A stretch of DNA of 64,000 nucleotides from an uncultured Acidobacteriota bacterium (GCA_963843575.1 CAWJKZ010000013.1:160001-224000), one strand, 5' to 3'; positions 20,821 through 40,800 are shown, numbered from the stretch's first letter. Translations and numbers: made by a program. Notes: generated by a model from the sequence alone, not told the origin.

Positions 20821-20851
20821 ATCTCCGGGCGCGGGAAACGCGGGAACCCGA

Positions 20852-23954: not shown

Positions 23955-25212
23955 TCAGGCGCGGGCGCGCCTGTCCATTTCCCGTATCTTCAGGACGAGC
24001 AGGACAATCAGCGCGGCAATGATCACTACGGAAACCGCCAGCCCCTTGCGTCTGTAGCTGAGTTCGCCCAGCGCGTTCCAGCCGCTGGACTCCGATGCCG
24101 CGGCGATCTTGTCTCCCTCGGCCAGCACTTTAACGAGCGCGGCGGGGTCGAACCGGTGGATCTCCACGCGGGCCCGTATCAGGTGATCCCGTCCCTCCGC
24201 CAGATCGTACAGCGGCCGGCTGACTTCCATCCCGGCGCGTTCCGCCCGTTTGAGCACTCCCTCCGCCGAACTCAGGTGGTTCCGCAGCCGGACGATTCCC
24301 TCCTTCATCTCGACGGCGGCCTTGTGTCCCGGGGTGCCGCTCTCGTGGCAGGTGGCGCAGGTTGCCGGTTCCTGTCCTCCGAGCATGTCGTCCGACGTGG
24401 CGGTGACAGCATGGTGCTCGTGACATGTCGAGCAGGCGAGCAGTTGCTGGTCGGCGAAGGCTTTCTTGTGAGGACTCGCCCCGAACAGGTCCCACTGGCT
24501 GACGTGGCACTGCCCGCAGACGTTGGCGACCGTGTCGACGCCGGGGGGGGCTGCCCCGTGGTTGCCGTGACAGTCGTTGCAGGTCGGGGCCGACATGTCG
24601 CGCTTCCTGATCAAGGCCTCGCCGTGGACACTCTTGATGTACTGCTCCATCTGGTTGGTGGGGATGCCATAGCTCGACATCCGCTTCGGGTCGGCGTGGC
24701 ACCGGCCACAGGTTGCCGCCACGTTCGTAGCGTACACGGGGCTGGTAGGGTTGGCCACGGCCTTCACGCCGTGGGCGCCGTGGCAGTCGATGCAAGTCGC
24801 CACGTTCGGATCCCCCGCCACATACTTCTTTCCGTGCACGCTCGTGAGGTATTCCGTGTATTGGTCGACCCGCGGCTGCGGGTTGTAGCGGCGCATGACC
24901 TCGGGCTTGCTGTGGCACGAGGCGCACAGCGCCGCAATCTGCCTGCGCTGCGGCCGGCCGATGAAACCCTTCGCCCGGCTCATCGAATCCTCGGCGCTTC
25001 CGGTCTCGATCCCCACGGTGGGGTCGCCCCCGTGGCAATTGTTGCAGGACAGCACCTTTCTGAAAGTGGATGTCCTGGACCGACAGGCGGACCGGGTCCT
25101 GCATTTCGGCGTTCAGATCGCGGTGGCACCTGACACAGGTGCTCTCTGCAACGCTCGCACCCTGCTGAACCGGAGCAACCCCGACCAGCAATACGAGAAC
25201 GACTTGCCACAT
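23955..25212 (-). CDS. Membrane-anchored nonaheme c-type cytochrome (frameshift near 25056)
   Basis: Signal peptide; CVRCH, CNNCH, CASCH, CIDCH, CGRCH, CNDCH, CGQCH, CSTCH, CATCH; coiled coil and C-terminal TM. Confidence 0.85.
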
Positions 25213-25223
25213 GGGAATGAGTC

Positions 25224-26294
25224 CTATGTCAGATACGCGAGCGCCGAGAGCGCCACGATGTAGACAAGGGCGGCCAACCCCGCGACCGCAAGCAGGTTCG
25301 CGCGGCCTGGTTCGCGCCTGGGCGCCGCGACAAATGGCGTTATGATCAGGAGCAGCCCGAGCACCCCGAAAAACAGGATGCCCAGCACCTCACCGTCCAC
25401 TCCCAAAATCTTGCCGGGAATGTATTTGAGCGTCTGAAACATGAAGACGAAATACCACTCGGGCTTAATGCCGGCCGGGGCCGGGGCGAAGGGGTCGGCC
25501 TTTTCCCCGAGTTCCCAGGGAAAGATGGCAGCGAGAGACGCCAGCACGGCGATGGCGGCGAGCCAGCCGACCAGGTCGCGCATCAGGAAGTCGGGAACGA
25601 ACTTCATCCGGGGTACGCTCTTTTCGTCGACCGAAGAGGGCGTGCTCATGCCGTGCTTCTGCACCAGGTAGACATGCAAGGCGAGGACGACCGTCGTGAG
25701 AGCCGGCAGTATGGCCACGTGGAAGCCGAAAAACCGCGTCAGGGTGGCTCCGGTTACCTCGTCTCCGCCGCGCAGAAAGCGCAGCAGGAAAGGTCCCGCC
25801 ACCGGCACGACACCCGCGATGTCGGTCCCGACCTTCGTCGCAAAAAAGGCCAGTTTGTTCCAGGGCAGGAGATAGCCGCTGAACCCGAAACCCAGGGCCA
25901 GAAACAGCAGCAGGGCGCCCGAGACCCAGGTCAGCTCGCGCGGACGCCGAAAGGCCCTCAGGAAGAGCGTGCTGAACATGTGGACGAAGGCGGCGGCGAT
26001 CATCAGGTTGGCCGACCAGCTGTGCACGGAACGGATCAGCCAGCCGAATTGAACCTCGGTCATGATGAACTGCACGCTCTCGAACGCCGCCTCCGCACTC
26101 GGGCGGTAGTAGAGGAGCAGCAGGATTCCCGTACCCACCTGGACGCAGAACAGGAACAGCGTCATGCCGCCGAAGTAATACCAGAGCGAGTGGCGATGCC
26201 GGGGCACTTCCTTGTGCTCGATGAGTTCCCGGGCGACGCGCCATCCGAGGCGTTCTTCCAGCCAGTCTCCCAGGCGCGGTGCGCTGGAGTTCAC
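25224..26294 (-). CDS. qcrB: Cytochrome b of a Rieske/cytb complex
   Basis: [47 protein letters not shown]. Confidence 0.92.
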
Positions 26295-26297
26295 GTC

Positions 26298-26741
26298 TTA
26301 TCCTCGCGAAACGATGATTTCCTGCCCGCGCACGTTGACTTGGAACTGCTCGAGCGGACGCGGCGGCGGTCCTGAAACGTTTTTCCCGCTGAGGTCATAA
26401 CGACCGTTGTGACAGGCGCACCAGATCATTTTTTCGTCGGCGCGGAACTGGACCGTGCAGTCGAGATGGGTGCACGTCGCGCTGAAGGCCCGGTACTCCC
26501 CGTCCGCCGTTTGAACGAGGATGCCTGGCTTGCTGCCGAACTTGAATATGCGGCCCTCGTTGGGTTTGAGATCGGTCGTCTTTGCGGCGACCACCGAATT
26601 CGCGCTCGACTCCACGACCCGCGGAGGGATCATGAAGCGGACGACCGGGTAGAGGATTGCACCGAGCGTTGCGACTGTTCCCGTCCCCAGAAGATAGTTC
26701 AATATCGAACGACGGCCAGGCGTAGGATTGGGAAGCGTCAT
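26298..26741 (-). CDS. qcrA: Rieske 2Fe-2S subunit
   Basis: Tat-like [11 protein letters not shown] anchor; CTHLDC and CACHNG boxes; SGPPPRPL. Confidence 0.92.
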
Positions 26742-27184
26742 ATCGGAACCCGCATGCAAAGCACCATGGATTCGCTTCGTTTCGCCACTTTAGGGGCAAA
26801 GGGGTCGAAGGGTCAAGAGGCAAAGGACGTCGTCAGGCACCCGCCTCGTGTCCTGGGAGTTGTCCATACACCCACCGTGCGCCTTTTAACCCAATCCGGC
26901 GTCCGAGCGGAGACCATCGACGGCCGCTTTGGTCAGTCGACTTTCGGCGCAGGCCACCGGGAGAGAGTAGCAGTAGCCCTCAGCCGAGAAGATATTTATA
27001 ATTCACCCCCTGACAAATCGCGAGCGCCGGCAGTGTCGAAACACTGCCGAATAGCCAAAAGCTTAATCGATTGTGCTATATGCCCCAACCTGGCCGACTG
27101 GGGAGAAATTCACCGTTAGCTGTTGAATAGTGCAACATGCAATTCTACTGAACTTTACGTCGATTCGGAGCCGGGTGGCTGCGA

Positions 27185-27201
27185 GCGGTGACGAAATTGC
27201 T
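27185..27201 (+). promoter_or_regulatory. Possible sigma54 (-24/-12) promoter for the mtr-like operon
   Basis: GG(27187-88)-N10-GC(27199-200) with TTGCT; -24 context (CGGTGA) deviates from TGGCAC. Confidence 0.3.
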
Positions 27202-27278
27202 TTTTATCCACCGAACTTCCCATTGGTTTTTGCAGTTGAACAAGCCGCTGCCCAGGCGGCCACGGAGGGCACGACATT

Positions 27279-29324
27279 ATGACTATGAGGGCGAAGAGAC
27301 CGACGGCGGTTCTTCTCTTTCTTTCTTTTTTCTCGATGGCGGCGCTAGGAATTGCCGCGTTTGTGAATGACTCGGAGAAGGTTTACAGTGCCATGGAGAA
27401 GGCCTTTTATCTCTCTCCTGAGGATGGTATCTGGATCCGCCCGGGTGTGAATCTAGCGATCCAGAACATCACGATACCGGCAGACCGCAAGCCGGTGGTT
27501 ACGTTCAGGATCACCGACGACAAGGGGCAGGGGTTGGATCGGACGGGTACGCTCACTCCCGGCACCGTCACGACCAGCTGGGTTTTCGCCTACATCCCGG
27601 AGAATGCCACGCAATACGTCGCCTACACGGTCCGAGCCCAGAAGAGCCCGATCACGAACGTGACGGAAATTCAGGCGTCGAGCGACCAGAACGGCAAGTA
27701 CGCCAGCCTGGGCGACGGGACCTACACCTACACATTCGGCACGACGCTCCCGGCCGCGTACGACACGACCGCGACCCACACGCTGGGCGTCTACTCGGTG
27801 CGTGACCTGCGCGAGTTCGGCCTGAGCCGCTACATCACCAACGTGCTGAACACCTTTGTGCCGGACGGCCGCGCGGTCACGAAGACCCGCGACGTCGTGC
27901 GCACCGCGGCCTGCAACCAGTGCCACGACCCGCTCGGGCTTCACGGCGGTTCGCGCCAGGACGTGCTGCTCTGCAACCTCTGCCACACGCCGCAATCAAA
28001 GGATCCTGACACGGGCAACACCGTCGACATGAAGGTGATGACGCACAAGATCCACATGGGCGCGGACCTGCCCAGCGTGCAGGCCGGGCAGCACTACCAG
28101 ATCATCGGCAACCAGCAGAGCGTCAACGATTACTCCGACGTCGTCTTCCCGCAGGACATTCGCAATTGCACGACCTGCCACAAGGACACGACCCAGGTCA
28201 ACAACTGGCTGCTCAACCCGACCCGGGACACCTGCGGCTCCTGCCACGACAACATCGACTGGACGAGCGGCAAGAACCACGTGGCCGGCCCCCAGCCTGA
28301 CGACCGCTACTGCGCCAATTGCCACTGGCCGGAGAGCGACTACGAGTACGACGCGACCATCGCGGGCGCTCACGTCCCACCCTACAAGTCGAAGCAGCTG
28401 TTCAACCCCAAGTTTGAAATGCTCGAAGTGACCAACACGGCTGCGGGCCAGTCCCCGACCGTCAAGTTCAAGGTCACGGATAAGACCGGCAAGGCAATTG
28501 CCCCCGCCATCATGGGCGGGACCTCGGGCCGCCTGTCACTGACCCTTGCAGGCCCGACCTCTGATTACCGCTGGTACCTGACCGAGGCGGCTAACACCGC
28601 GGAGTACGCCGACGGCGTGGCCACCTACACCTTCAAAGGAGTGATCCCGGCGACGGCCACGGGCACCTACGCCGTGGAGGCGGAGGGCTATCTTAACGCC
28701 ACTCTCAATCCCGGTACCGAGAAGCAGTTGAGCTACCGCGACGCATTTGATAACGTTGTAAAGCCGTTCGCGGTGACCGGAACGCTGGAAAACCGGCGCA
28801 CTGTGGTCGATCTGGCGAAGTGCAACAAGTGCCACGACAAACTGCAGCTGCACGGCAACAACCGGAACCAAATCGAAGCGTGCGTGGTTTGCCACAACCC
28901 GGCGACCACCGACGCGGCCCGCAGGCCCGCGGCAGCCCTCCCCGCGGAAGCGATCGACATGAAGATCATGATTCACAAGATCCACACGGGGGCGGAGCTG
29001 GCGAACGATTACACCGTCTACGGCTTCGGCAACACCGCAATCAACTTCAACGAAGTCGGTTACCCGGGCGACCGCCGCAATTGTCTCGGCTGTCACGTCG
29101 GGACTTCCTACCAGGTGCCCCTTGCTGCCTCGGTCACCTCGTCCACGACGCCGCGCAGCTTCTGGGATCCCATGAAGCCCACGTCGGCGGCGTGCCTGGG
29201 GTGCCACGACTCTGTGGACGCGGCCGCGCATGCGTTCGTCAACACGGCGACGTTCGGAGAGGCCTGCTCGGTCTGCCATAAGGAAGGTGCGGACGCTGCG
29301 GTGACAAAGGTCCACGCCCGATAG
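27279..29324 (+). CDS. mtrC: MtrC/OmcA-family decaheme c-type cytochrome
   Basis: Ten CxxCH motifs in two blocks of five, each preceded by a beta-rich domain; repeated MKxMxHKIHxG and FPQDIRNC/YPGDRRNC. Confidence 0.85.
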   Translation: MTMRAKRPTAVLLFLSFFSMAALGIAAFVNDSEKVYSAMEKAFYLSPEDGIWIRPGVNLAIQNITIPADRKPVVTFRITDDKGQGLDRTGTLTPGTVTTSWVFAYIPENATQYVAYTVRAQKSPITNVTEIQASSDQNGKYASLGDGTYTYTFGTTLPAAYDTTATHTLGVYSVRDLREFGLSRYITNVLNTFVPDGRAVTKTRDVVRTAACNQCHDPLGLHGGSRQDVLLCNLCHTPQSKDPDTGNTVDMKVMTHKIHMGADLPSVQAGQHYQIIGNQQSVNDYSDVVFPQDIRNCTTCHKDTTQVNNWLLNPTRDTCGSCHDNIDWTSGKNHVAGPQPDDRYCANCHWPESDYEYDATIAGAHVPPYKSKQLFNPKFEMLEVTNTAAGQSPTVKFKVTDKTGKAIAPAIMGGTSGRLSLTLAGPTSDYRWYLTEAANTAEYADGVATYTFKGVIPATATGTYAVEAEGYLNATLNPGTEKQLSYRDAFDNVVKPFAVTGTLENRRTVVDLAKCNKCHDKLQLHGNNRNQIEACVVCHNPATTDAARRPAAALPAEAIDMKIMIHKIHTGAELANDYTVYGFGNTAINFNEVGYPGDRRNCLGCHVGTSYQVPLAASVTSSTTPRSFWDPMKPTSAACLGCHDSVDAAAHAFVNTATFGEACSVCHKEGADAAVTKVHAR

Positions 29325-29330
29325 GTTCTT

Positions 29331-30260
29331 ATGTTCACAAAACGTGTTCTGCAGATCACGCTTTTGTTTTCCACCCTGTTCGTCCTGGCGGGGATTCTGA
29401 CCGGCGCGCAAGCGCCGGCGCAGAATCCCCCCCAGGGGGCCGCCCCGGCGACCGGGAGCGTCAATAACGAGGACTGTGCCGTTTGCCACGAGGACGTCGC
29501 GAAGGCATTCGACAAGAACCCCCACGCGGTGCTCGAAAAAAGCCCGAAGTTCAGCATGAAGAACTCGTGCGAATCGTGCCACGGCCCCGGGGAAGCCCAC
29601 GCGAGCAACGACGGCGACCGCACCAAGATCATCACGTTTCGGGATCAAGCCAAAAAGCTCTACAACGAGCAGTGCCTGACCTGCCACCGGAAGCACCCCG
29701 AGGTGAACGGTTTCGCGGGGAGCGCGCACTCGAAGTTCGGGCTTTCCTGCACCGATTGCCACCGCGTCCACCGCCCGGCCCCGACGACTCGCCTGCTGCA
29801 GCAGCCGGTTAACAACCTGTGCTTCAGCTGCCACGTGCAGAGCCGCACCGATTTCTCGAAGCCCTTCCATCACCGGGTGCGCGAAAACTCGATGCGTTGC
29901 ACCGATTGTCATCAGCCCCACAGCGGCATCGATTCGCGTCAGGTCCGGACCACCAGCTTCGGCGACTCTCCCTGCTTCAAGTGCCACACCGACAAGGAGG
30001 GCCCGTTCGTATTCGAGCACGCTCCGGTCGTGATACGCGATTGCCAGGCCTGCCATCAGCCCCACGGGTCGAACAACTCCAAGATGCTCGTGCGCGCCAC
30101 GGTGCGGGCGGTTTGCCTCGAATGTCACACGACCAGCAACGGTGTCCTTGGGGCCTCTCCGCCGGCATTCCACGACATCCGCAGCCCCCGGTTCCAGAAT
30201 TGCACTACCTGTCACGTGAAGATTCACGGCTCAAACGCCGACGTGAAATTCCTCAGGTGA
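29331..30260 (+). CDS. mtrA: MtrA/DmsE-family periplasmic decaheme cytochrome c
   Basis: Ten CxxCH motifs; GPFVFEHAPV, CHQPHGS, CTTCHVKIHGSN C-terminus. Confidence 0.9.
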   Translation: MFTKRVLQITLLFSTLFVLAGILTGAQAPAQNPPQGAAPATGSVNNEDCAVCHEDVAKAFDKNPHAVLEKSPKFSMKNSCESCHGPGEAHASNDGDRTKIITFRDQAKKLYNEQCLTCHRKHPEVNGFAGSAHSKFGLSCTDCHRVHRPAPTTRLLQQPVNNLCFSCHVQSRTDFSKPFHHRVRENSMRCTDCHQPHSGIDSRQVRTTSFGDSPCFKCHTDKEGPFVFEHAPVVIRDCQACHQPHGSNNSKMLVRATVRAVCLECHTTSNGVLGASPPAFHDIRSPRFQNCTTCHVKIHGSNADVKFLR

Positions 30261-30283
30261 GGACACAGGAGCTAACAACCGTG

Positions 30284-32440
30284 ATGCGCATGGCCCGCCA
30301 ACATATGTCGCCTGCTGCCCGACCCTCGTATTTGACCGCCGCGGCGCTCATGATGCTGCTGGCTGTCGTTGCGGCGCCCCTGTCAGGACAGTCCCCCCCG
30401 CCGCAGGAACAGAAGCAGGAGCCTCCGAAGGAGTCCGCCAAGGAGCAGTTCCGTGCGGACAGGGAGGGGCAGATCCTGGCCCCGACCCAGACCCCCTCCA
30501 TTCCATCCGATGAAGGCTTCACCCTTGGCGCCTACCAGGGTCATGCCGACGTCGAACTCGGATATCGCTGGCGTTCGGACGTCTCGGGTAACACCGATGT
30601 CTACCGGAGCATGGTCAACCTCGGGAGCGGCCCGAAACTGCTTCGGTCGAACTTCTCGTTGCGCTCCAACTACGGTGCCGGTACCCTGTTCGACCGGTTG
30701 GACGTTTCCGCAAACAGCTGGGGCGGCGACCCGTACAACACCCTCCGCATCAGCTTCGGCCTTTCGGACAAGTACGAATTTCGCGCGAACTACCGCAACC
30801 TGAACTACTACAACTATCTGCCGCAGTATGCCAACCCGCTGCTGCTCACCCGCGGCATCGCCTTCGGGCAGCACAGCCTGAATGTCACCAACCGCACGAG
30901 CGACTTCGAATTGAAGCTGTTCCCCAACAGCAGGGTCCGCCCCTTCGTGGGCTATTCGCGCAGTTCCGGCTTCGGCCCCGGCTTCACCACCGCGGAGTTC
31001 ACGGGGAACGAATTCCTGGTGGAAACGAACTGGCGCTACTCGTCGGACGACTATCGGGGCGGCGTCGAAATCTCGCTCCCCAAGACCGTCTTGACAGTCG
31101 AGCAGGGCTATAGGACCCTGCGCAACGACACCGGCGTCGATTCCGGCCCGAACAACGGCAACAACCCCAATGCGAGGTTCCTCGGAAACCCGGTCTTCCT
31201 GACCTCGCTCGACCGCGGCTACCACGACCGCACTACCCTGCCGTTTACCAAACTGGTAGCGAAATTCACCCCTTTCCGGTCGCTGAAGGTCACCGGCCGG
31301 TACATCTACTCCATGGCCGACCTCGACTCCAGTTACGGCGAGGTCACGTCGGGAGCGTTCGCCAACCTCGCGGAACGGCTGGTTTACCGGGCTGGTCTGG
31401 ACAACTTCGACACCCACGCCAAGCGGCCGGACCACAACGGCAGCTTCCTGGTCGAATTCTCACCCTTCAGCAGGCTGACCCTTCTCGACCAGTTCGAGAG
31501 CCGCAACAATCACACGAGCGGGTCCGCCCTGCTGGCGTCGATCTTCTACGGCTCACGCTCGTTGGCCGGACCCGGTCCGACGAGCGATGCCACGATCACC
31601 GACCTCGCCCGCTCGTACCTCGCGTTCAACCGGCTGAGCAACCTTGCCGAGGCCGAGTTCGACCTCCGGTGGGGCTTTGCCGTCCGCGGCGGCTACCGGT
31701 ATACCAATGCGGATGCCACGGTGGGCGACGCGGAGGGGAGTGACCTCATCGAAGGGGAAAGTTCCTCATACTCGCAAAACACGGGCATCGTCGGGGTGAC
31801 CTACCGGAAAGCCCGCTGGCTCCGCCTTGGTTTCGATTACGAGAAGAACGACACGAACGGCACGCTTACCCGGACCGATCTCCTGAATTTCGATCGTCTC
31901 CGGTTCGACTGGCGCGTCGGCTCCTGGCATCACTTCAGCACCAGCGGAAGGATCTGGGGTCTGCGCAACAGCAACGACCAGAGCGACATCGATCTCCAAT
32001 CCCACAACCGCAACTACAGTTTGGAACTCAACTACGACCCGACCGAACGCTACCATCTCAGCCTGGACTACTCCCGCTCCAGCATTCTCTCCGATATCTC
32101 GATCCTGCTCCCGCAGACGCTTCGGCTCGACCGGTCCCTCTTCGACGAAAAGAGCCACGGCCTGGGCGGCAGCATGGGGGTCGGCTTGTACCGCGGGACG
32201 CGCGTCGATTTCGGCTACCGGGGGATTTTCAACAGCGGCACCGCGCCGCTGGCGTACCACCAGCCTTTCGCGGAGCTGACGGTGCCCCTGCAGCACCGGC
32301 TGGCGTTCAAGACTTACTGGCAGTACTTCGGATACAACGAGAAGTCACCCTTCGGCGGGACCACGATCGACCGGGGTCCGCGTGGGTTCCAGGATTTTCA
32401 CACGCACCTGGTGACATTCTCGATCGCCTACCTGTATTAG
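30284..32440 (+). CDS. mtrB: Outer-membrane beta-barrel porin, MtrB/PioB-like (start uncertain, 30281-30305)
   Basis: Signal peptide, alternating aromatic beta strands, C-terminal aromatic residue, position after the MtrA-like gene. Confidence 0.7.
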   Translation: MRMARQHMSPAARPSYLTAAALMMLLAVVAAPLSGQSPPPQEQKQEPPKESAKEQFRADREGQILAPTQTPSIPSDEGFTLGAYQGHADVELGYRWRSDVSGNTDVYRSMVNLGSGPKLLRSNFSLRSNYGAGTLFDRLDVSANSWGGDPYNTLRISFGLSDKYEFRANYRNLNYYNYLPQYANPLLLTRGIAFGQHSLNVTNRTSDFELKLFPNSRVRPFVGYSRSSGFGPGFTTAEFTGNEFLVETNWRYSSDDYRGGVEISLPKTVLTVEQGYRTLRNDTGVDSGPNNGNNPNARFLGNPVFLTSLDRGYHDRTTLPFTKLVAKFTPFRSLKVTGRYIYSMADLDSSYGEVTSGAFANLAERLVYRAGLDNFDTHAKRPDHNGSFLVEFSPFSRLTLLDQFESRNNHTSGSALLASIFYGSRSLAGPGPTSDATITDLARSYLAFNRLSNLAEAEFDLRWGFAVRGGYRYTNADATVGDAEGSDLIEGESSSYSQNTGIVGVTYRKARWLRLGFDYEKNDTNGTLTRTDLLNFDRLRFDWRVGSWHHFSTSGRIWGLRNSNDQSDIDLQSHNRNYSLELNYDPTERYHLSLDYSRSSILSDISILLPQTLRLDRSLFDEKSHGLGGSMGVGLYRGTRVDFGYRGIFNSGTAPLAYHQPFAELTVPLQHRLAFKTYWQYFGYNEKSPFGGTTIDRGPRGFQDFHTHLVTFSIAYLY

Positions 32441-32501
32441 GGCCAATTAGAGCACAAAGCATCACGAAAACGTTACGGCGCCGCGATTCCCCACCACAAT
32501 A

Positions 32502-32664
32502 CATGTGGGTCCGGGCTTCAGCCCGGACGTCTCTTGATCTGACCTAATGTGGCGACGGGCCACGTTATAGCGACCGCAAACAGCGTCCGGGCTGAAGCCC
32601 GGACCCACATGAATTGTGTTTGGGTCGGGCGCCAACCCTTGGACAGCCTCTTCAAGCCCGGACG
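32502..32664. repeat. REP doublet (REPIN/BIME-like), copy A
   Basis: Perfect 28-bp IR CATGTGGGTCCGGGCTTCAGCCCGGACG (32502-32529/32584-32611); second copy with the same spacer at 47761-47914. Confidence 0.8.
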
Positions 32665-32734
32665 CAGTTTGCAGTCGCTATGCTGGGGAGCTGGAGCTCA
32701 ATGAGCTCTTGCTCCTGAATCGGACGCCCCCCCC

Positions 32735-32774
32735 AAAAAAATCAGCGCCCTTCCTCCGGGAAGAAGAAGGGCGC
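32735..32774 (-). terminator. Rho-independent terminator of sRNA copy 1
   Basis: Minus strand GCGCCCTTCTTC-TTCCCG-GAGGAAGGGCGC-TGATTTTTTT. Confidence 0.7.
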
Positions 32775-32864
32775 CGCTCGGGTGTAGGTGGGTATTAAGG
32801 GTGGAAAGGAGGTTGTATGTCGGAACGATTCTCCTTCTTTGGGTTGTACTTTGCTCTATCCGAC
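32735..32864 (-). ncRNA. Putative small RNA, copy 1
   Basis: Paralogous to 33060-33162; CU-rich core AACCUCCUUUCCACCCUUAAUACCCACCUACACCC; ends in a 12-bp GC hairpin plus U-tract; sigma54 site upstream. Confidence 0.65.
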
Positions 32865-32873
32865 ATTAGTGGA

Positions 32874-32889
32874 AGCACACTTTGCGCCA
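32874..32889 (-). promoter_or_regulatory. sigma54 promoter of sRNA copy 1
   Basis: Minus strand TGGCGCAAAGTGTGCT = GG-N10-GC, 11 nt before the conserved TCGGATAGAGCAAAG start. Confidence 0.65.
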
Positions 32890-33059
32890 TCGGCTTCGCC
32901 TGCTGCCGAATTGTGCCATAATCGTTTTCTGCTAAATCACTTACGAAAGAACACGTCGGTTGGGATGCAGCGGAAGTACAGCAGAATTTGGGTTTACTCA
33001 CCCGATGAGCGGGTTATTTGGCACAAATTTGGCCTGATGCCGCGCCTGCATGTCCCGAC

Positions 33060-33162
33060 AAAAAATCAGCGCCCCTCCTCCGGGAAGAGGAGGGGCGCCG
33101 CTCGGGTGTAGGTGGGTATAAGGGTGGAAAGGAGGTTTATAACTCCTTTGCTCTATCCGAGA
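33060..33162 (-). ncRNA. Putative small RNA, copy 2
   Basis: Same 5' end, CU-rich core and terminator as copy 1, with a compensatory C-G/U-A change in the terminator stem. Confidence 0.65.
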
Positions 33163-33171
33163 TTATCTATT

Positions 33172-33188
33172 AGCAAGCCCTCATGCCA
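33172..33188 (-). promoter_or_regulatory. sigma54-like promoter of sRNA copy 2
   Basis: Minus strand TGGCATGAGGGCTTGCT; near-consensus boxes but GG-N11-GC spacing (possible homopolymer error). Confidence 0.5.
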
Positions 33189-33448
33189 GTTTGAATGGGC
33201 TGGTTGGTATTCCTGTAAAGTTGGCAACAGCAAATCTTACCGCTGTATTTCGCCGCAGCCTCAAATCGGCGCTCGGTCTTTTTCGGGTGATCTGAGCCAA
33301 CAACGGTGGTAAAACACCCACTCACACGTTCTAAGTGCGCGGTTCCGCTTGAATGCCATTCTCGTGCCTGGCAGCGGGGTCGTGTAAACCTTTCGGTTGC
33401 TTCAATGTATCGGGGCGGCATGATAACCTATTACGGTGGCCGACATAT

Positions 33449-34330
33449 ATGAAGCGTGACACGGAGCAGTACAGTAGTGGTGTGCGGAGGGTTCTCGTCA
33501 TTACCCTTGCGCTGAACCTCGCTGTCGTGGCAGGGAAGCTGTTCGCCGGCATCCTGGCCGGTTCCCTGAGCGTGGTCAGCGACGCGCTGCACTCCTCGGC
33601 GGATTCGCTGAACAACATCGTCGGGATCTTTATAATCCGGGTCGCGAGCACGGCCCCCGACAAGGAGCATCCTTACGGCCACCACAAGTACGAGACGCTG
33701 GGAGCCTTCGGAATCGCGTGGTTCCTCCTTGTGACCGCCTTCCAGGTGGGTCAAGGCGCGGTCAAGCGGCTGCTGGGTTGGACACAGTCGGACGTCGAGG
33801 TCACCTCGCTGACGCTCGGAATTATGGTGGCAACACTTCTTGTGAACTTTTTCGTGTGGTTTTACGAGCGCCGGCGTGCGCGTGAGCTCGACAGCGCATT
33901 CCTGATGGCCGACTCGCAGCACACCCTGAGCGATATCGGGGTAAGCACGTCGATCCTGATCGGTCTGCTGCTGCTGCGCTTCGGGATCATCGACTTGGAC
34001 GCCGTGCTGGCCCTTGCGGTCGCCGGCATCATCACGTTCGCAGCCTACCAGATATTCGCGAGCACCATCCCCGTCCTGGTGGATCGGGCGCCGGTGGCGC
34101 CGGAGTTCGTCGCCGAAATCGTCCGCTCGACCCCGGGGGTGGAGTCCGTGCACGGTATCATGTCGCGCGGGGTGCCCGGCATGACCTTCATTTCCATGCA
34201 CCTGGTGGTGACTCCGCTGAGCACGCCCGAAGCCCACGCCATCACCGAGGATGTGGAGCGCAGGCTGGCGGAAAAGGTCGGTCCTTGCGAGGTGACGATC
34301 CACATCGAACCCGATGACAGGAGTTCCTAA
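33449..34330 (+). CDS. Cation diffusion facilitator (FieF-like) transporter
   Basis: SDALHSSAD, PDKEHPYGHHKYE, ADSQHTLSD, C-terminal VTIHIEP. Confidence 0.92.
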   Translation: MKRDTEQYSSGVRRVLVITLALNLAVVAGKLFAGILAGSLSVVSDALHSSADSLNNIVGIFIIRVASTAPDKEHPYGHHKYETLGAFGIAWFLLVTAFQVGQGAVKRLLGWTQSDVEVTSLTLGIMVATLLVNFFVWFYERRRARELDSAFLMADSQHTLSDIGVSTSILIGLLLLRFGIIDLDAVLALAVAGIITFAAYQIFASTIPVLVDRAPVAPEFVAEIVRSTPGVESVHGIMSRGVPGMTFISMHLVVTPLSTPEAHAITEDVERRLAEKVGPCEVTIHIEPDDRSS

Positions 34331-34382
34331 CGGGGCCGGCGGCGGGGCAGATCCCATCGTTGACGGCCGGCGTGAACCTTCC

Positions 34383-36484
34383 ATGATGAACCCGGGCAAG
34401 CCGAAACCAGACCTCCTGCGTGCGGACTCGATCGAGTTTGCGGACGTGTTCAATGCCGATCCCGTATCGGGCCGCATCACGCTCGGGAACGACCGCTACG
34501 TGATGTTCGATGCGGAGGCTGTCGGCAAGATGCGCCGGGAGCTGATCGACAATCTCGGGTGGGAGGTTGCGCGCGGCATCCTCGAGCGTGTGGGTTACCA
34601 GTCCGGACGAAACGACGCCCGTCAACTGGGGGCGCGCTACAGTTGGCCGTCCGATGAGGAGTGGCTCCGGGCCGGGCCTCGCCTGCATTTCCTGGAAGGG
34701 ATGGTCAAGGTTCGGGTGCGCGAACTGGACTTCGCACGCGGGGAACGCCGGTTTCGCATGAAGGGCGACTGGATCGAGTCCTACGAAGCCGAGCAGCACC
34801 TGAAGCAATACGGCGTCGGGTCCAGACCGGTCTGCTGGTCGCTCGAGGGCTACGCCACAGGGTATGCGAGCGAGTTTTTCGGCGAGGACATCGTCTGCTT
34901 CGAGGTCAGCTGCCGGGGCAAGGGCGACCCGGTTTGCAGCTTCGAGCTGCGGCCCTCCCGGGAGTGGGGCGGGGCCGCGCTCCCGATGCAGGAGATGCTG
35001 GCGGCGGTGCGCTTCACCGAGAGGTTCGATCGCTGTCTGCGCTCCATCAGTGAAATGGGGTGCGAGCTCGAACAGAGCTCCCTCGACGCGATTGTCACCA
35101 CCGACGCCAGGGGGATGATCACCTCGTGCAGCCAGGGAGGAAGCGAGCTCCTCGGCCTGCTGCCGGGAGAGGCGGTCGGGAGGCCGGTAAGCGCATTCTA
35201 CGCCAGGGGGCGCGCGGAGGCGGCGCGCCTCATGGAGCGCCTCCGACGCGAGGGCCGCATCCGCTACTATCTCACCGATATCATCACGGCCGGCGGCCGC
35301 AAAACCCCGATCGCCCTGGCGGCGTCGGCGATCAAGAACGCGCTCGGCCACGTCGTCGGTACTATCGGGGTGGCCCACAACCTCACCGAGATCCGGCGGC
35401 TCGAGGATGAGCTCGCCGCCAAGAACAGGTTCATGGCCAATATCCTGCAGGATTCGGCCGACGCGATCATCACGATGGACCCGGACGGCACCATCACGTC
35501 CTGGAACCGCGGCGCGGAATCCATCTTCGGCTATCCCGCCGACGAGGTGCTGGGCCGGTCCATCGAGGTCATCGTTCCCGCCGATCTACTGCGCGGCCAA
35601 CGAACTGGAACGGATCGCGCAGCGCGTCAGGAGCTCACGGGCGCGGTCCGCAACTACCAGACCGAGCGCATGACGAAGGACGGCCGGCGGCTCCAGGTGA
35701 TTTTCACCCGCACGGCGATCCGCGACGAAACCGGGCGCGTCGTCGGCAGTTCCGCGGTCCTGAAGGACGTCACCACGTTCCGGAACCTGGAACGGCAGCT
35801 TGCCGACGCCGAGCACCTGGCGACCCTGGGAGAGCTCTCGGCCGGGCTGGCGCACGAGATCAAGAACCCGCTCGCCGGCATCAAGGGCGCGATCGATGTC
35901 ATCCGCGACTCGCTCCCTGTCAACCGACCTGCACCGGGACGTGCTCGGGGACGTGTTGCACGAGGTGAACCGGATCGACAGGATCGTGCGGGACCTGCTG
36001 AACTATGCCAAGCCGAAGCCCCCCTCGCTCAACGCCATCGCGCTCCCGGAGGTGGCGCAGAGGCTGGTCGCCATGGCGCGCAAGTCCCCGAAGACCGAAG
36101 GCGTCTCGATCCGAGCTCGAGCAGTCCGGGGACATCCCCGGTTTCACGGGGGACGAAACGCAGCTCGAACAGGTGCTGCTGAACCTTCTGCTGAACGCCC
36201 AGAGCGCCGTCTCCCCCGGGGGCCACATCCTCGTCCGGCTGGCGTTCGAACCCGAGGAGCTGACGATCCGGATGGAGGTGGCGGACGACGGGCCGGGCAT
36301 ACCGGACGAGATCCGGAAACGCATCTTCCAGCCGTTTTTTACGACCCGGACGGAGGGGACCGGGTTGGGGCTGGCAACTTGCCTCAAAAACGTGCAGTAT
36401 CATGGCGGGACCATCAACGTGTTCAGTGCGCAGGGTCAGGGGACGCGGTTTGTCGTCACCTTGCCGCTGCTTTGTCGCTTTTAG
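34383..36484 (+). CDS. XylR-N/V4R-PAS-PAS sensor histidine kinase (frameshifts near 35590-35625, 35920 and 36115)
   Basis: GPRLHFLEG..SYEAEQH..PVCW.LEGYATGY..E..C..KGDPVC.F (XylR/V4R); two PAS domains; GLAHEIKNPL; QVLLNLLLNA; GTGLGL. Confidence 0.85.
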
Positions 36485-36496
36485 GCGATCTGACGC

Positions 36497-37884
36497 ATGC
36501 CCAAGGAAACGATACTCGTAGTCGACGATGAACGCCTCGTGCGCTGGTCGCTCCAGCAGAAGCTCGAGCAGTGGGGCTATCACGTCAGCCTCGCCGAGGA
36601 TGGCGCCACGGCGCTGGGCCGCGTCCAGCTCGACAATCCGGACCTGATCACCCTCGACGTGAAGCTTCCCGGATATGACCGGGATCGAGGTCCTGTCGGA
36701 GCTGCGCAACCGCAACGTGCACGTGCCCGTGATCGTGATCACGGCCTTCGGCGTGGTCGACGACGCCGTGCGCAGCCTCAAGCTCGGCGCCTACGATTTC
36801 ATCGAGAAGCCGATCAACTTCGAGAAGCTGGAGAATTCCGTCCGCAACGCCCTGGAAACGCGCCGGCTGCGCACCGAGGTCGCGCGCACGCACGAAATCC
36901 AGCGCAGCGAGTTCAGCGTCGACCGGATCATCGGCGTCTCCGACCACATCCGGGAGGTCCGCGAACTGATCAAGAAGATCGCCGGCAGCGAGGCTTCGAC
37001 CATCCTGATCCAGGGGGAGAGCGGGACCGGCAAGGACCTCGTCGCCCACGCCATCCACTACGAGTCGACGCGCCGCGACCGCCCCTTTTTCGCCATCAAC
37101 TGCGCCGCCATCCCCGAAAACCTGATGGAGTCCGAGCTGTTCGGCCACGAAAAGGGAGCCTTCACCGACGCCCGCTCCCAGAAAAAGGGGATGTTCGAAA
37201 TGGCCGACGGCGGCACCCTGTTCCTGGACGAGGTCAGCGAAATGACCCTCGGGATGCAGGCGAAGCTGCTGCGGGTCCTCGAAGGGCAGTCCTTCCGGCG
37301 CGTCGGCGGCGTCAAGAACATCAACGTCGATGTGCGCGTGATCGTCGCCTCCAACCGCAATCTCGAGGATGCCGTGCGGACCTCGAGGTTCCGGCAGGAC
37401 CTCTATTTCCGGCTCGCCATCATCCCCGCTGACCCTGCACCCGCTGCGGGAACACAAGGACGACATCCCGGCGCTGCTCGAGCACTTCATCCAATACTAC
37501 AACCAGAAATTCCGGAAGAGCATCCAGGGGCTCACGAAAGACGCCGAGGAACTGCTCCTGAACTACGACTGGCCCGGCAACATCCGCGAGCTCAAGAACG
37601 CCATCGAGAGGGTCATGATCCTGGCGGACGGAAACCGGGTGGCTTCGAAATACCTGCCGATCCGGATCTCCGAGGGGGGAGTGCTCCCCGTGCCGATGGG
37701 AGACGGGCAGGGCAACGGCGGCATCCAGCTGCCGGCCGGCGGCACTTCGCTCTACGACGTCGAACGCGAACTCATCCGCCAGGCGCTGGAACAATCCCGG
37801 GGCAACAAGACCACCGCAGCCCGTCTCCTCCGCATCACCCGCGACACCTTGCGCTACAAGGTGAAAAAGTACAACCTGGACTGA
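36497..37884 (+). CDS. NtrC-family sigma54-dependent response regulator (frameshifts near 36672 and 37425)
   Basis: REC domain; [50 protein letters not shown], Fis-type HTH. Confidence 0.92.
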
Positions 37885-37898
37885 ATCCGGCAACGACT

Positions 37899-40800
37899 AT
37901 GAAAAACCACCGCCCGCCTCTGCGCGTCGCCGTCGCAATCCTGCTGTCCGCCGCGGCTGTCCTGTCCACGCTCTACCTGGGCCGCGTCGGCGCTTCCCCG
38001 GCGCCTCAAGCGGCCCCGGACAAGACCGCAGCCGAAGCGGCCCGCAGGCGGGCCGTCGGAGACGGTCCTGCGTCTCAACAATCTCGGCATCGCCGAGTTG
38101 GAGCAGTTTCACTTCACGCAGGCAGCCTCCTATTTCGAGAAGGCGCGGGCCCAGGCGCCGCACCTGGTGCCCCTCGCCGTAAACCTGGCCATCGCTCTCT
38201 TCTACGACCGGAAGAACGACGAGGCCGAAGCGCATCCTGAAAGGCGTCGTGGCGACAGACCCGAAGCAGCGGGAAGCTCACTACGTGCTCGGGTTGTTGC
38301 ACCGCTCAACGGGAAGCAACGAGGAAGCGCTGGCTGACATGAAGGCGGCGCTCGCGCTCGATCCGCAGGATCCGGCCACACTTTACTTCGCCGGGGCTCT
38401 GAACTCGGCCCAGCACAACTGGGAGCCTGCCGTCCGCTACCTGCGTGACGCCTTGGCGCGCGAACCATTCAACGTATCCATCTACTATGCGCTGGCGACC
38501 GCGCTCGTGCAAAAGGGGGATACTCCGCAGGCCGAGAAGGTGATGGCCCAGTTTCAGGAGCTCAAGTCGCGCGGCACCGGGACGAGTTATGGCAACCAGT
38601 ACCTGGAGCAGGGGCGCTATGCGCAGGCCATTCAAATCCCGGGCCCGGGCGGGCCGTTCGGCCTGCCCGGCGCCCGCCCCCGCTTTACCGACCTATCCGC
38701 CGCCGGCGGGTTGACCTTTGTCCATGCGGGTCCCCGCGAGGCACCGCTCTTCGACGGCGCAGGCCGTCCGGACACCGCGGTGCCCGCCGCATTTGGTTCC
38801 GGTCTCGCCTTCCTGGACTACGACGGCGACGGTCGGCCGGACCTCTTCCTCGCCAATGTTTCGGGCCCCGGGGTCCTCTATCGAAACAAGGAGGGTGGCA
38901 CGTTCGAAGCCGTGGCCGCGTCGGGCATCGGCTTCGAGGGGACTGCCATGGGGGTCGCGGCGGGCGACTACGACAACGACGGGTTTCCTGATCTATTCAT
39001 CGCCGGAGTCGATGGGAGCGCGCTCTACCACAACGAGGGGAAGGGGACTTTCAGCGACAAGACGTCGCTCCTTTCCCAGGCCCTCAACGGGTCCTGGGCG
39101 ACGAGCCCGGCGTTCATCGACCTCGATCACGATGGCGACCTCGACCTGTTCATCACTTGTGCCGCCAAACCGGGGCGACCCGCCGCCCGCAACCTGTTGT
39201 ACAGGAACAACGGGGACGGCACGTTTGCCGAATCGGGCGAAGCCGCCGGCACGGCCGCTTCGGGTTTTGCGGCCTCGGCGGTCTACATGGACTACAACGG
39301 TTCCCGCGACATCGACGTGATCGTGCTCGGTGCGCCTCGGTGGAACCTGTACTCGAACAAGCGGGACGGCAGCTTCGCCGACTCGACCGTGGCCGCCGGC
39401 GTTCCGCCTTCCGATGGGTCGCTCGGGGCAGCCGCCGGCGACCTGGACGGCGACGGCCGGATCGATCTGTGCAGCGTGGGGGCCGGCCGTCCGGGAGTCG
39501 CCCGGATCCTATGGAATCAAGGGTCGGCCTACAAGATCCAGGAAGTGCCGCTCCCCTCGAAGGCGCAGCTGTGGAACGTGCGGGCACTGGATTACGACAA
39601 CGACGGCGACCTCGACCTCCTGCTGGCGGGCGACGAACTCCGCCTCCTCGAGAACGACGGCCGCAGGAGCTTTCAGGACGTGACCTCCGCGGTCGGGCTC
39701 GACCGGATCCAGGCTTCAGGGGCGCGCGCCCTCGCCGTGGCCGACTACGACCGGGACGGCGACCCCGATGTCGTCGTCAGCCGGTGCGGCCGGCCGGCCG
39801 TCCTGCTGCGAAACGACGGCGGCAACCGCAACCGCTTTTTCCGGCTCTCCCTGCGGGGCAAGGCGGACAACTACTTCGGCGTGGGAGCGAAAGTCGAGTG
39901 GGCCGCCGGCGGCCTGTGGCAGCACAGGGAACCGGACGGGGACGCGGGTTACATGAGCCAGAGCTCGGGCGAGATGCTGCTCGGACTGGGCAGGTTCGCC
40001 GCACCCGACTACGTCCGGGTTTTGTGGCCTACGGGGGTGCTGCAGTCGGAGATACCCGCCAAGGATGCCGGCAAACTGGTGCTGACCGAACTCGACCGCA
40101 AAGGCACCTCGTGCCCGATTCTATATGCCTGGAACGGAAGCGCCTACGAGTTCGTGACCGATTTCCTCGGCGGCAGCGGCATGGGTTACCTGCAGTCGCC
40201 CGGCAATTACGGCATTCCGGATACGGACGAATACGTCAAGATAACGGGAGCACAACTCCGTCCGCAGGGGGACCGGCTTTCCCTCAAAATGGCAAATCAG
40301 CTCGAAGAAGTCATGCTCTTCGACTCGGTGCGCCTGCTGGCGGTCGATCACGCCGCCCACACCGAAATATTCCCGAACGAACGCCTCATGGCCGCGCCGC
40401 CGTTTCCCGGCCACCGTATCTACACGGCGACTTCGCCCCGGCCCGTCGCGTCGGCCCTGGACGGCAGCGGTGCATCCTGGCAGCACGCGCTGGCAGCCGT
40501 CGACCGGGATTATGTCCGTGGCTTCCGGTTGCTCCCGTTCAAAGGGTATGCCGAGGAGCACACGCTCGAGCTCGGGCTCGGGGACCTTCGCGGGAGCAGC
40601 CGCACCGTGTTGCTCATGGACGGCTGGATCGATTACGCAAACTCCAGCTCCAACTTCTCCGCCGCGCAGGCCGGCGTCAAACTGGTCCCCCCCTATCTGC
40701 AGGTGTGGGATTCCGGTGGCTGGCGCACCGTTATGCACGACATGGGGTTTCCGGCGGGATTGCCCAAAACAATGATCGTCGACCTGTCGGGGAAACTCCC

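What the first reader, a model, noticed from the sequence alone, without database searches (positions are those of the whole stretch)
23955..32440. Rieske/cytb/nonaheme complex divergently paired with an MtrCAB-type conduit
Seen: qcrA-qcrB-nonaheme (minus) and decaheme-decaheme-porin (plus) share a ~540 bp intergenic region, giving 29 CxxCH motifs in total. Known: Shewanella feeds MtrCAB from quinol through CymA, and no CymA/NapC is in this window. Inference: a quinol-to-surface wire in which a Q-cycle-capable bc complex replaces CymA, conserving more energy during metal or humic reduction, or running in reverse for electron uptake.
Basis: partly seen in the sequence, partly recalled or inferred. 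Interest (0 to 1): 0.75.

Follow-up and report, generated by a model that had tools for sequence, protein, structure and literature searches.

The report
Rieske/cytochrome b complex beside acidobacterial MtrCAB
An uncultured soil Acidobacteriota genome places a Rieske/cytochrome b complex with a nine-heme subunit back to back with an MtrCAB-type outer-membrane electron conduit, which makes it a candidate for the unknown link between the quinone pool and MtrCAB in this phylum.

Summary
Six genes sit at 23955-32440. On the minus strand are a Rieske protein, a 7-helix b6-type cytochrome b and a membrane-anchored nine-heme cytochrome. On the plus strand are mtrC, mtrA and an MtrB-like 26-strand porin. 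They are separated by about 520-540 bp and carry 29 CxxCH motifs. The nine-heme gene has a 1-base frameshift, probably a long-read error, because an essential tRNA synthetase gene and a regulator gene in the window are also split.

The porin gets no Pfam hit itself. However, 10 of 30 relatives hit MtrB_PioB, its model's best PDB match is MtrB (6R2Q_B), and MtrA is modelled inside it.

In 80 related Acidobacteriota mtrCAB loci, mtrC-A-B order is nearly universal. The Rieske/cyt b/nine-heme operon lies within 10 kb in only 5, in three different arrangements. ImcH-like cytochromes neighbour 25 loci and b561 plus 11-heme pairs neighbour 8. This suggests interchangeable quinol modules.

The nine-heme family appears more widespread than this adjacency. 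The two operons appear to use different promoter types, and no expression or redox data exist.

Verdict: a new variant of a known kind. The coupling is plausible but unproven.

The parts
23955..25212 (-). Nine-heme c-type cytochrome with a signal peptide and a C-terminal membrane helix. It is the third subunit of the Rieske/cyt b complex. The reading frame is broken by a 1-base shift near 25056-25060.
   Evidence: There are 8 CxxCH motifs in 23955-25055 and 1 in 25056-25212. The alignment to the intact L004 ortholog shows the shift. A hydrophobic segment lies at residues 339-357 of the C-terminal part. In the family alignment, nine CxxCH motifs, 8 further His and Met106/Met328 are invariant.
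25224..26294 (-). Cytochrome b. It is b6-like at the N-terminus and subunit-IV-like at the C-terminus, fused, with 7 predicted helices.
   Evidence: Pfam: Cytochrome_B 3.6e-52 and Cytochrom_B_C 4.1e-07. NCBIfam: cytochrome b6 231 bits and ExtP 208 bits, both below their cutoffs. Best PDB match is cytochrome b6, 6rqf_I, at 5.1e-59, with the four His ligands aligned and Tyr in place of the Cys at the aligned position (that this Cys binds heme cn is recalled). Seven hydrophobic segments are found.
26298..26759 (-). Rieske 2Fe-2S subunit with an N-terminal RR-containing anchor.
   Evidence: Pfam: Rieske 4.1e-14 and TM_PetC 1.2e-09. The CTHLDC and CACH boxes and the GRRSIL motif are visible in the translation.
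26787..26816 (-). Sigma-70-like promoter match upstream of the Rieske gene (inferred).
   Evidence: TTGACC-18-TAAAGT, 9 of 12 matches. The stretch is conserved between the window and L001. This is a consensus match only.
27121..27137 (.). Conserved palindrome TGTTG-N7-CAACA. It is a possible binding site for the enhancer-binding regulator (inferred).
   Evidence: Both arms are invariant in the window, L001 and L004.
27187..27201 (+). Sigma-54-like -24/-12 element (GG-N8-TTGCT), 78-92 bp upstream of mtrC.
   Evidence: It aligns in the window, L001 and L004. It is found 86-89 bp upstream of mtrC in 4 of 4 clade loci (L001-L004), against 8 of 67 other loci and 173 of 3440 background windows. The stricter consensus search found nothing here.
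27279..29324 (+). MtrC/OmcA-family decaheme cytochrome, with a signal peptide and no lipobox cysteine.
   Evidence: TIGR03507 521 bits against cutoff 209. Pfam Mtrc-MtrF_II-IV_dom 5.5e-52. PDB matches include MtrF, OmcA, UndA and MtrC. No Cys precedes the first heme motif.
29331..30260 (+). MtrA/DmsE-family periplasmic decaheme cytochrome.
   Evidence: TIGR03508 245 bits against cutoff 192. Best PDB match is 6r2q_A at 1.5e-37.
30281..32440 (+). MtrB-like 26-strand outer-membrane barrel.
   Evidence: It gets no Pfam hit itself. Ten of 30 family members hit PF11854, best 6.8e-09. The AF2 model has pLDDT 78.8 and 26 long strands. Its best PDB match is 6r2q_B. In the complex model with MtrA, ipSAE is 0.90 against 0.00 for the best control.
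34314..38240 (+). Sensor kinase (XylR_N/V4R/PAS/HisKA) and a sigma-54-dependent response regulator. The regulator is split by a frameshift. They are the probable regulators of mtrCAB (inferred from synteny).
   Evidence: Pfam domains. The same kinase and regulator families lie downstream of mtrB in L001, L003 and L004.

Best explanation
The six genes encode two machines that most likely work in series.

The first is a Rieske/cytochrome b6-type quinol oxidoreductase. Its cytochrome c1/f subunit is replaced by a membrane-anchored nine-heme cytochrome.

The second is a complete MtrCAB conduit. Decaheme MtrA is threaded through a 26-strand MtrB-like barrel, and decaheme MtrC sits on the cell surface.

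Proposed path: menaquinol is oxidised at the Qo site. One electron goes Rieske, then the nine-heme chain, then MtrA, then MtrC, then extracellular Fe(III), Mn(IV) or humic acceptors. The other electron recycles through the b hemes. The nine-heme subunit would stand in for both CymA and a soluble periplasmic shuttle.

Shown: the identity of each part, the catalytic motifs, the MtrB-like fold, and recurrence of the neighbourhood.

Inferred: that the two operons exchange electrons, the direction of flow, the quinone type, and any extra energy conservation.

In this family of Acidobacteriota mtrCAB loci the inner-membrane partner looks modular. It can be ImcH-like, a b561 plus 11-heme pair, or this Rieske/cyt b complex.
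For: - Part identities.
- Porin: fold match to MtrB (6r2q_B, E 1.4e-15, TM 0.58/0.63) and 26 strands.
- MtrA modelled inside the porin: score 0.90, best of 3 controls 0.00. The mark was reached by 116 of 157 solved complexes and 2 of 215 mismatched pairs. The runs agree in at least 92% of contacts, and the partner's pLDDT is at least 80. My own alignments were used, so the counts hold only roughly. A like complex (6R2Q) is solved, so the pass may reflect memory.
- The Rieske/cyt b/nine-heme operon lies within 10 kb of mtrCAB in 5 of 80 loci. It is divergent upstream in L001 and L004, downstream on the same strand in L016, and downstream convergent in L065 and L069.
- On the MtrC tree (69 rows) the trait needs at least 3 changes.
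- Eight of 23 nine-heme homologs on contigs of 14 kb or more share the contig length and source labels of a porin homolog (a heuristic).
- No multiheme or NapC-type protein other than these three lies in the window. None of the 5 loci with the Rieske operon has the ImcH-like gene.
- Candidate quinol modules of any type neighbour mtrCAB in 34 of 80 loci: ImcH-like in 25, b561 in 8, NrfD in 4, Rieske/cyt b in 5.
- Baker et al. 2022 (PMC8805035, passages seen) found no inner-membrane quinone oxidoreductase near Acidobacteriia mtrCAB in their 5 genomes, so the role is open.
- Geobacter extHIJKLMNOPQS couples a porin-like protein and multiheme cytochromes with a Rieske protein and a cytochrome b (PMC5877670, passages seen).
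Against: - 75 of 80 loci lack the complex within 10 kb.
- L002, inside the window's own 5-member clade, has mtrCAB with about 6.9 kb of upstream flank and no Rieske operon there. A nine-heme homolog seems to lie elsewhere on its contig.
- The nine-heme family is large. More than 100 clusters have at least 60% identity. Atlas look-alike clusters are auto-named 'quinol-cytochrome-c reductase cytochrome c subunit', and others come from other phyla. It may therefore be a general complex III.
- The promoters look different: sigma-54-like for mtrCAB and sigma-70-like for the Rieske operon.
- The nine-heme gene is frameshifted in this assembly.
- From general knowledge, not tested here: Rieske clusters are usually much more positive than MtrA/MtrC hemes, so forward transfer could be uphill.
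- There are no expression, redox or genetic data.
Confidence: 0.45

Rival explanations
1. The Rieske/cyt b/nine-heme complex is the lineage's general-purpose complex III. It would feed oxidases or other periplasmic reductases. It lies near mtrCAB only loosely, and MtrCAB is fed by another quinol dehydrogenase encoded elsewhere in the genome.
For: The nine-heme family is abundant. Atlas look-alike clusters are auto-named as a quinol-cytochrome-c reductase subunit, and others come from other phyla. 75 of 80 mtrCAB loci lack the complex nearby. L002 appears to keep it on the same contig but away from mtrCAB. The promoter types differ. ImcH-like genes are the commoner neighbour, in 25 of 80 loci.
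Against: There are three different arrangements of the same pairing and at least 3 changes on the MtrC tree. My rough estimate is that a single operon placed at random in a genome assumed to be about 5-6 Mb falls within 10 kb of mtrCAB in about 0.3 of 80 genomes. The genome size is assumed, not measured. A nine-heme subunit with 8 invariant extra histidines looks like a low-potential wire rather than a c1-type donor to oxidases (inference).
Confidence: 0.3
2. The pair runs in reverse. MtrCAB takes electrons from Fe(II), reduced humics or a cathode, and the Rieske/cyt b complex pushes them uphill into the quinone pool using proton-motive force.
For: Reverse use of bc1 or ACIII complexes is proposed for electron-uptake bacteria (bioRxiv 10.1101/2022.05.06.490989, passages seen). 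I also recall it for Acidithiobacillus, with no call to support that. A positive Rieske potential suits this direction (general knowledge). Cytochrome bd oxidase genes adjoin mtrCAB in 9 of 80 related loci.
Against: A surface MtrC is present. As I recall, with no call to support it, Fe(II)-oxidiser MtoAB/PioAB clusters usually lack one. No carbon-fixation or oxidase genes lie in the window. There is no evidence of autotrophy.
Confidence: 0.15
3. The frameshift is real, and the nine-heme gene, and hence the complex, is inactivated in this organism.
For: There is a 1-base frame break near 25056-25060 relative to the intact L004 ortholog.
Against: An essential leucyl-tRNA synthetase is split over two or more ORFs, and the sigma-54 regulator is split as well. 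The nearest relative, L001, also shows fragmented hits. This pattern fits indel errors of a long-read assembly. Both halves keep intact motifs.
Confidence: 0.05

Closest known systems
Shewanella MtrCAB with CymA (structure 6R2Q)
   Same: The gene order is mtrC-mtrA-mtrB. MtrC and MtrA pass their NCBIfam cutoffs. The porin's best fold match is MtrB. MtrA is modelled inside the barrel.
   Different: The porin sequence is too diverged for PF11854. MtrC has no lipobox cysteine, and only 5 of 70 relatives have a lipobox-like motif. No CymA/NapC is present, and a Rieske/cyt b complex is the neighbour instead.
Group 5 Acidobacteriia MtrCAB of Baker et al. 2022 (PMC8805035)
   Same: Same phylum and same mtrCAB type. 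Their tetraheme cytochrome downstream of mtrB matches the 4-heme class-I cytochrome that I find in 15 of 80 loci.
   Different: They saw no inner-membrane quinone oxidoreductase near mtrCAB in 5 genomes. Here 34 of 80 loci have one, and the window's clade has the Rieske type. The window lacks the tetraheme gene.
Geobacter sulfurreducens extHIJKLMNOPQS cluster (PMC5877670)
   Same: One cluster combines an outer-membrane porin-like protein, several multiheme cytochromes, a Rieske protein (ExtO), a cytochrome b (ExtP) and ExtQ. The window's cytochrome b scores 208 bits on the ExtP model and weakly on ExtQ. L065 and L069 add a 5-heme ExtKL-like cytochrome.
   Different: The ExtP score is below the cutoff of 290. 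The b and subunit-IV parts are fused here. The conduit is MtrCAB, not ExtI. The cytochrome has 9 hemes, not 10 or 12.
Cytochrome b6f / bc complexes
   Same: Rieske boxes, four b-heme histidines and a PEWY motif are present. A b6-like N-terminus scores 5.1e-59 against spinach b6.
   Different: There is no Cys at the aligned position in b6, where a Tyr sits instead; that this Cys binds heme cn is recalled. The b6 and subunit IV parts are fused. A 9-heme subunit with a helical stalk and a C-terminal anchor replaces cytochrome f/c1. That subunit has no significant PDB fold match.
Geobacter ImcH and CbcL inner-membrane quinol oxidases
   Same: The proposed role is the same: linking the quinol pool to outer-membrane conduits. 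ImcH-like proteins (N-terminal helices, one CX3CH and five CX2CH, 25 of 25 members) and b561 plus 11-heme pairs occupy equivalent positions in related loci. This matches the architecture described in PMC6295460.
   Different: They are unrelated protein families. Those proteins have no Rieske cluster and cannot run a Q cycle.

Membership tests
MtrCAB outer-membrane conduit | OmcA/MtrC-family decaheme cytochrome | tested here: met
   TIGR03507 521 bits against cutoff 209, with 10 CxxCH motifs.
MtrCAB outer-membrane conduit | MtrA/DmsE-family periplasmic decaheme cytochrome | tested here: met
   TIGR03508 245 bits against cutoff 192. PDB 6r2q_A at 1.5e-37.
MtrCAB outer-membrane conduit | MtrB/PioB porin by sequence model (PF11854) | tested here: not met
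   No Pfam hit even at E<=10. Ten of 30 family members do hit PF11854, best 6.8e-09. A profile search of PDB sequences found nothing.
MtrCAB outer-membrane conduit | 26-strand barrel that sheathes MtrA | tested here: met
   The AF2 model has 26 long strands. Its best PDB fold match is 6r2q_B, TM 0.58/0.63. The complex model scores 0.90 against 0.00 for the controls, and may reflect memory of 6R2Q.
MtrCAB outer-membrane conduit | Lipoprotein anchor on MtrC (as in Shewanella; recalled) | tested here: not met
   No Cys precedes the first heme motif. A lipobox-like motif occurs in 5 of 70 relatives.
Rieske/cytochrome b (bc1/b6f-type) complex | Rieske cluster-binding boxes CxH...CxxH | tested here: met
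   Pfam Rieske 4.1e-14. CTHLDC and CACH are in the translation.
Rieske/cytochrome b (bc1/b6f-type) complex | Four His ligands of hemes bL/bH and a PEWY Qo motif | tested here: met
   The histidines align with those of spinach b6. PEWY is in the translation. The assignment of roles to these residues is recalled.
Rieske/cytochrome b (bc1/b6f-type) complex | Mono- or di-heme cytochrome c1/f subunit | tested here: not met
   The third gene encodes a 9-heme cytochrome with a C-terminal anchor.
Rieske/cytochrome b (bc1/b6f-type) complex | Q-cycle turnover and proton translocation | not testable with these tools
   This needs biochemistry.
Geobacter Ext (ExtO/ExtP/ExtQ) module | ExtP equivalog score | tested here: not met
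   NF040969 208 bits against cutoff 290. ExtQ 16.6 bits against cutoff 150.
CymA/NapC/NirT quinol dehydrogenase | A tetraheme NapC/NirT protein in the locus | tested here: not met
   No such ORF is in the 64-kb window.

The most novel reading that the evidence does not exclude
The Rieske/cyt b/nine-heme complex is a dedicated, Q-cycle-driven quinol:MtrA oxidoreductase. Its anchored nine-heme subunit reaches across the periplasm to MtrA without a soluble shuttle. This would give these Acidobacteriota a higher proton yield per electron during mineral or humic respiration than CymA-type pathways. It would be one of several interchangeable inner-membrane modules plugged into the same conduit.
Probability: 0.2. 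Interest if true: 0.8.

Novelty: new variant of a known kind. Interest (0 to 1): 0.55.

Why it matters
Acidobacteriota are among the most abundant soil and peat bacteria, and their mtrCAB clusters suggest a role in iron and humic cycling. The one broad survey I read (PMC8805035) could not name the inner-membrane link for this phylum.

A Rieske/cyt b entry point would change the expected energy yield and the redox window of extracellular respiration. The modular picture (ImcH-like, b561 plus multiheme, or Rieske/cyt b) gives concrete candidates to test in metatranscriptomes and heterologous hosts.

My searches found no paper describing this pairing: 'mtrCAB' + 'Rieske' + 'Acidobacteria' gave 0 papers, and 'Rieske' + 'MtrCAB' gave 3 papers, none on it by title or abstract. 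The library covers open-access papers only.

Tried and rejected
- Direct Pfam and NCBIfam scans of the porin found nothing.
- A profile of 30 porins against PDB sequences gave only a chance-level hit at E=1.
- A search for the strict sigma-54 consensus with up to 2 mismatches found 16 matches in the window against 23.8 expected, and none in the intergenic region. The looser GG-N8-TTGCW element was found by alignment instead.
- Rfam found no family at gathering score in the whole window.
- The fold search of the nine-heme model (pLDDT 85.2) found no match at E<=0.001. The best matches were octaheme hydroxylamine oxidoreductases at E about 0.01 and TM up to 0.40. I do not rely on this.
- Mutual exclusion of the Rieske operon and the ImcH-like gene (0 loci in common, with 5 and 25 of 80) is not significant by my hypergeometric estimate, p about 0.14.
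I could therefore not run the reverse survey, starting from the nine-heme gene or from cytochrome b.
- I did not read the supplementary files of the papers.


Full report
**What is there.** The window is GC-rich, about 0.58-0.69 per 2-kb window. Between 23955 and 32440 it holds six genes in two divergent operons.

On the minus strand:
- A Rieske protein. Pfam gives Rieske 4.1e-14 and the PetC-type anchor 1.2e-09. An RR-containing N-terminus and both cluster boxes are visible in the translation.
- A 356-aa cytochrome b whose N-terminal part is b6-like and whose C-terminal part is subunit-IV-like.
- A multiheme cytochrome.

NCBIfam places the cytochrome b nearest to cytochrome b6 (231 bits, cutoff 325) and to ExtP of Geobacter (208 bits, cutoff 290), so it passes neither model. 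Against solved structures the best match is spinach cytochrome b6 (6rqf_I, 5.1e-59). In that alignment the four heme-ligand histidines are kept, and a Tyr sits where b6 has a Cys at the aligned position. That this Cys attaches heme cn is recalled. A hydropathy scan gives seven helices.

On the plus strand:
- An MtrC/OmcA decaheme (TIGR03507, 521 bits, cutoff 209).
- An MtrA/DmsE decaheme (TIGR03508, 245 bits, cutoff 192).
- A 719-aa outer-membrane protein.

**The nine-heme gene.** The ORF at 23955-25055 has 8 CxxCH motifs. The ninth motif and the signal peptide lie in another frame at 25056-25212. The L004 ortholog is an uninterrupted 414-aa protein with 9 motifs, and aligning it places a 1-base shift near 25056-25060 in the window.

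I read this as an assembly error, for three reasons. Leucyl-tRNA synthetase is split across at least two ORFs. The sigma-54 response regulator is split within its receiver domain. The sensor kinase ORF ends inside HisKA with no ATPase domain. The nearest relative, L001, a MAG with long contigs, also shows fragmented hits.

The protein ends in a hydrophobic helix. Its AF2 model (pLDDT 85.2) has three long C-terminal helices. Across 28 family members, the nine CxxCH motifs, eight further histidines and two methionines are invariant. That is consistent with mostly bis-His hemes, which is an inference.

**Is the porin MtrB-like?**
- It has no Pfam or NCBIfam hit, even at E<=10.
- A database search found 297 relatives, mostly unnamed metagenome proteins, a few labelled Acidobacteria.
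- Ten of 30 aligned relatives hit PF11854 MtrB_PioB, best 6.8e-09.
- The AF2 model (pLDDT 78.8) has 26 long strands.
- Its best PDB match is MtrB of the Mtr complex (6r2q_B): E 1.4e-15, TM 0.58/0.63. The following hits are TonB-dependent receptors with TM about 0.35-0.43.
- A complex model of the porin (76-719) with MtrA (36-309) supports binding. The score is 0.90, and the best of 3 controls is 0.00. The mark was reached by 116 of 157 solved complexes and 2 of 215 mismatched pairs. The runs agree in at least 92% of contacts, and the partner's pLDDT is at least 80. My own alignments were used, so the counts hold only roughly. Because 6R2Q is solved, the pass shows likeness and not proof.

**Survey.** One scan of species-representative genomes with the porin alignment returned 80 loci. 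All are MAGs, nearly all labelled Acidobacteriota (many Bryobacterales), and two are labelled Acidimicrobiia.

A tblastn search with the window's proteins shows mtrC-mtrA-mtrB upstream of, and in order with, the porin in almost every locus that is long enough.

The Rieske, cytochrome b and nine-heme genes are within the fetched flanks in 5 of 80 loci:
- L001 and L004: divergent upstream, as in the window.
- L016: downstream on the same strand.
- L065 and L069: downstream and convergent, followed by a 5-heme ExtKL-like cytochrome and next to an NrfD cluster.

I called ORFs in all loci and clustered them. Representatives were annotated by Pfam and NCBIfam. Counts are:

| Neighbour of mtrCAB | Loci (of 80) |
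|---|---|
| ~480-aa protein with N-terminal helices, one CX3CH and five CX2CH | 25 |
| b561/FdnI-like cytochrome b next to an 11-heme cytochrome | 8 |
| NrfD | 4 |
| Cytochrome bd oxidase | 9 |
| Class-I 4-heme cytochrome downstream of mtrB | 15 |
| Any of the four quinol-type modules, counting the Rieske/cytochrome b operon (5 loci) | 34 |

- The ~480-aa family has that architecture in all 25 of 25 members. It hits NapC/NirT at 1.4e-07 and NrfH at 5.7e-13, below cutoff.
- This is the architecture that Zhong and Shi describe for ImcH homologs (PMC6295460, passages seen). I did not test it against an ImcH sequence.
- Among the 48 loci with at least 5 kb on both sides, 25 have one of the four quinol-type modules.

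**Phylogeny.** I built an MtrC tree of 69 rows. Twelve of the 81 loci (80 plus the window) were left out because they have no full 10-heme MtrC ORF, L065 among them.

The tree puts the window with L001, L002, L003 and L004 in a clade with 100% support. The Rieske operon is present in 3 of these 5. L002 lacks it despite about 6.9 kb of upstream flank. L003 has only 884 bp upstream and cannot be judged. Over the tree the trait needs at least 3 changes.

**Indirect evidence from the protein database.** The nine-heme family is large, with more than 100 clusters at 60% identity or more to the L004 protein. Six of these contigs are 14-64 kb. One is the 173,155-bp contig of L002.

This is a heuristic match and not a coordinate. 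The tool that could have given accessions was switched off.

Atlas look-alike clusters, most commonly from Acidobacteriota, are auto-named 'quinol-cytochrome-c reductase, cytochrome c subunit'. Further look-alike clusters are commonest in Ignavibacteriota, Nitrospinota, Verrucomicrobiota and others. The complex type is therefore probably wider than the mtrCAB association.

**Regulation.** The gap holds three candidate elements:
- A GG-N8-TTGCT element at 27187-27201. It aligns in the window, L001 and L004. It is found 86-89 bp upstream of mtrC in 4 of 4 clade loci, against 8 of 67 other loci and 5% of background windows.
- A palindrome at 27121-27137 with conserved arms.
- A sigma-70-like match at 26816-26787 on the minus strand before the Rieske gene.

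A sensor kinase with XylR_N/V4R/PAS domains and a sigma-54 activator lie downstream of mtrB in the window, L001, L003 and L004.

I infer sigma-54 control of mtrCAB. I have no evidence that the Rieske operon shares it.

**Interpretation.** The hardware for quinol oxidation with a Q cycle and for trans-outer-membrane transfer is present and adjacent. No other candidate quinol dehydrogenase is in the window. Related loci carry other quinol modules in equivalent positions.

This supports, but does not show, a wire running quinol, Rieske/b, nine-heme, MtrA, MtrC. Points against it:
- The pairing is rare (5 of 80).
- It is absent next to mtrCAB in L002.
- The nine-heme family has a wide distribution.
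- The promoter types differ.
- From general knowledge, there is a likely potential mismatch between a Rieske centre and Mtr hemes.

Reverse operation for electron uptake is a live alternative. Precedents are proposed for bc1 and ACIII complexes.

**Comparison with the literature.**
- Baker et al. 2022 found mtrCAB in 5 Acidobacteriia genomes (their Group 5). They stated that these encode no putative inner-membrane quinone oxidoreductase near mtrCAB.
- Zhong and Shi 2018 reported that no mtrAB was adjacent to imcH.
- Jahan et al. 2018 described the Geobacter ext cluster, which joins a porin-like protein, multiheme cytochromes, a Rieske protein and a cytochrome b.
- My searches for this specific pairing found nothing.

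I therefore rate it a new variant of a known kind.

Noticed in passing
window 16222-19037; 34314-36531; 36497-38240: Several genes look split by frameshifts. Leucyl-tRNA synthetase runs over two or more ORFs. The sensor kinase ends inside HisKA with no ATPase domain. The sigma-54 regulator is split within its receiver domain. This fits indel errors of a long-read assembly.
   Followed up: partly
window 32441-33352: The 0.9-kb non-coding stretch after mtrB is repeat-rich. It holds two copies of an 82-nt unit (32736-32817 and 33060-33141, 84% alike), each with a GC-rich hairpin followed by a T-run on the minus strand. It also holds two long inverted repeats (32489-32529/32584-32624 and 32567-32593/32655-32681). 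There is no Rfam match.
   Followed up: partly
L005, L006, L010, L013, L015, L020 and 19 other loci: An ImcH-like cytochrome (N-terminal helices, one CX3CH, five CX2CH) neighbours mtrCAB in 25 of 80 loci. It often sits with a 9- or 11-heme cytochrome and sometimes with a b561-type cytochrome b. A 2018 survey reported that no mtrAB was adjacent to imcH.
   Followed up: partly
L017, L018, L019, L023, L024, L055, L057, L074, L078: Cytochrome bd oxidase genes lie just downstream of mtrCAB in 9 of 80 loci, with an OsmC-like gene in 8 of them (all but L017). This hints at a link to oxygen or oxidative stress.
   Followed up: no
L005 and L080: Two bins labelled Acidimicrobiia (Actinomycetota) carry the acidobacterial-type mtrCAB with an outer-membrane porin. 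On the MtrC tree they sit among Acidobacteriota rows, so mis-binning seems likely.
   Followed up: no
L021, L024, L066: Extra copies occur: a second MtrB-MtrA-MtrC set in L021, two mtrC genes in L024, and an inverted mtrC after mtrB in L066. The 2022 survey saw no mtrC duplications in its Acidobacteriia group.
   Followed up: no
window 34314-36182: The sensor kinase downstream of mtrCAB starts with XylR_N and V4R domains, which Pfam describes from activators of aromatic catabolism. It might sense an aromatic or quinone-like signal, which is speculation.
   Followed up: no
window 60110-61700; 62604-63707; 19830-20978: Other genes in the window: a pair with a ferric-reductase-like membrane domain and a molybdopterin oxidoreductase domain (MsrQ/MsrP-like by recall), a Ku protein, and a histidine-specific methyltransferase.
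   Followed up: no
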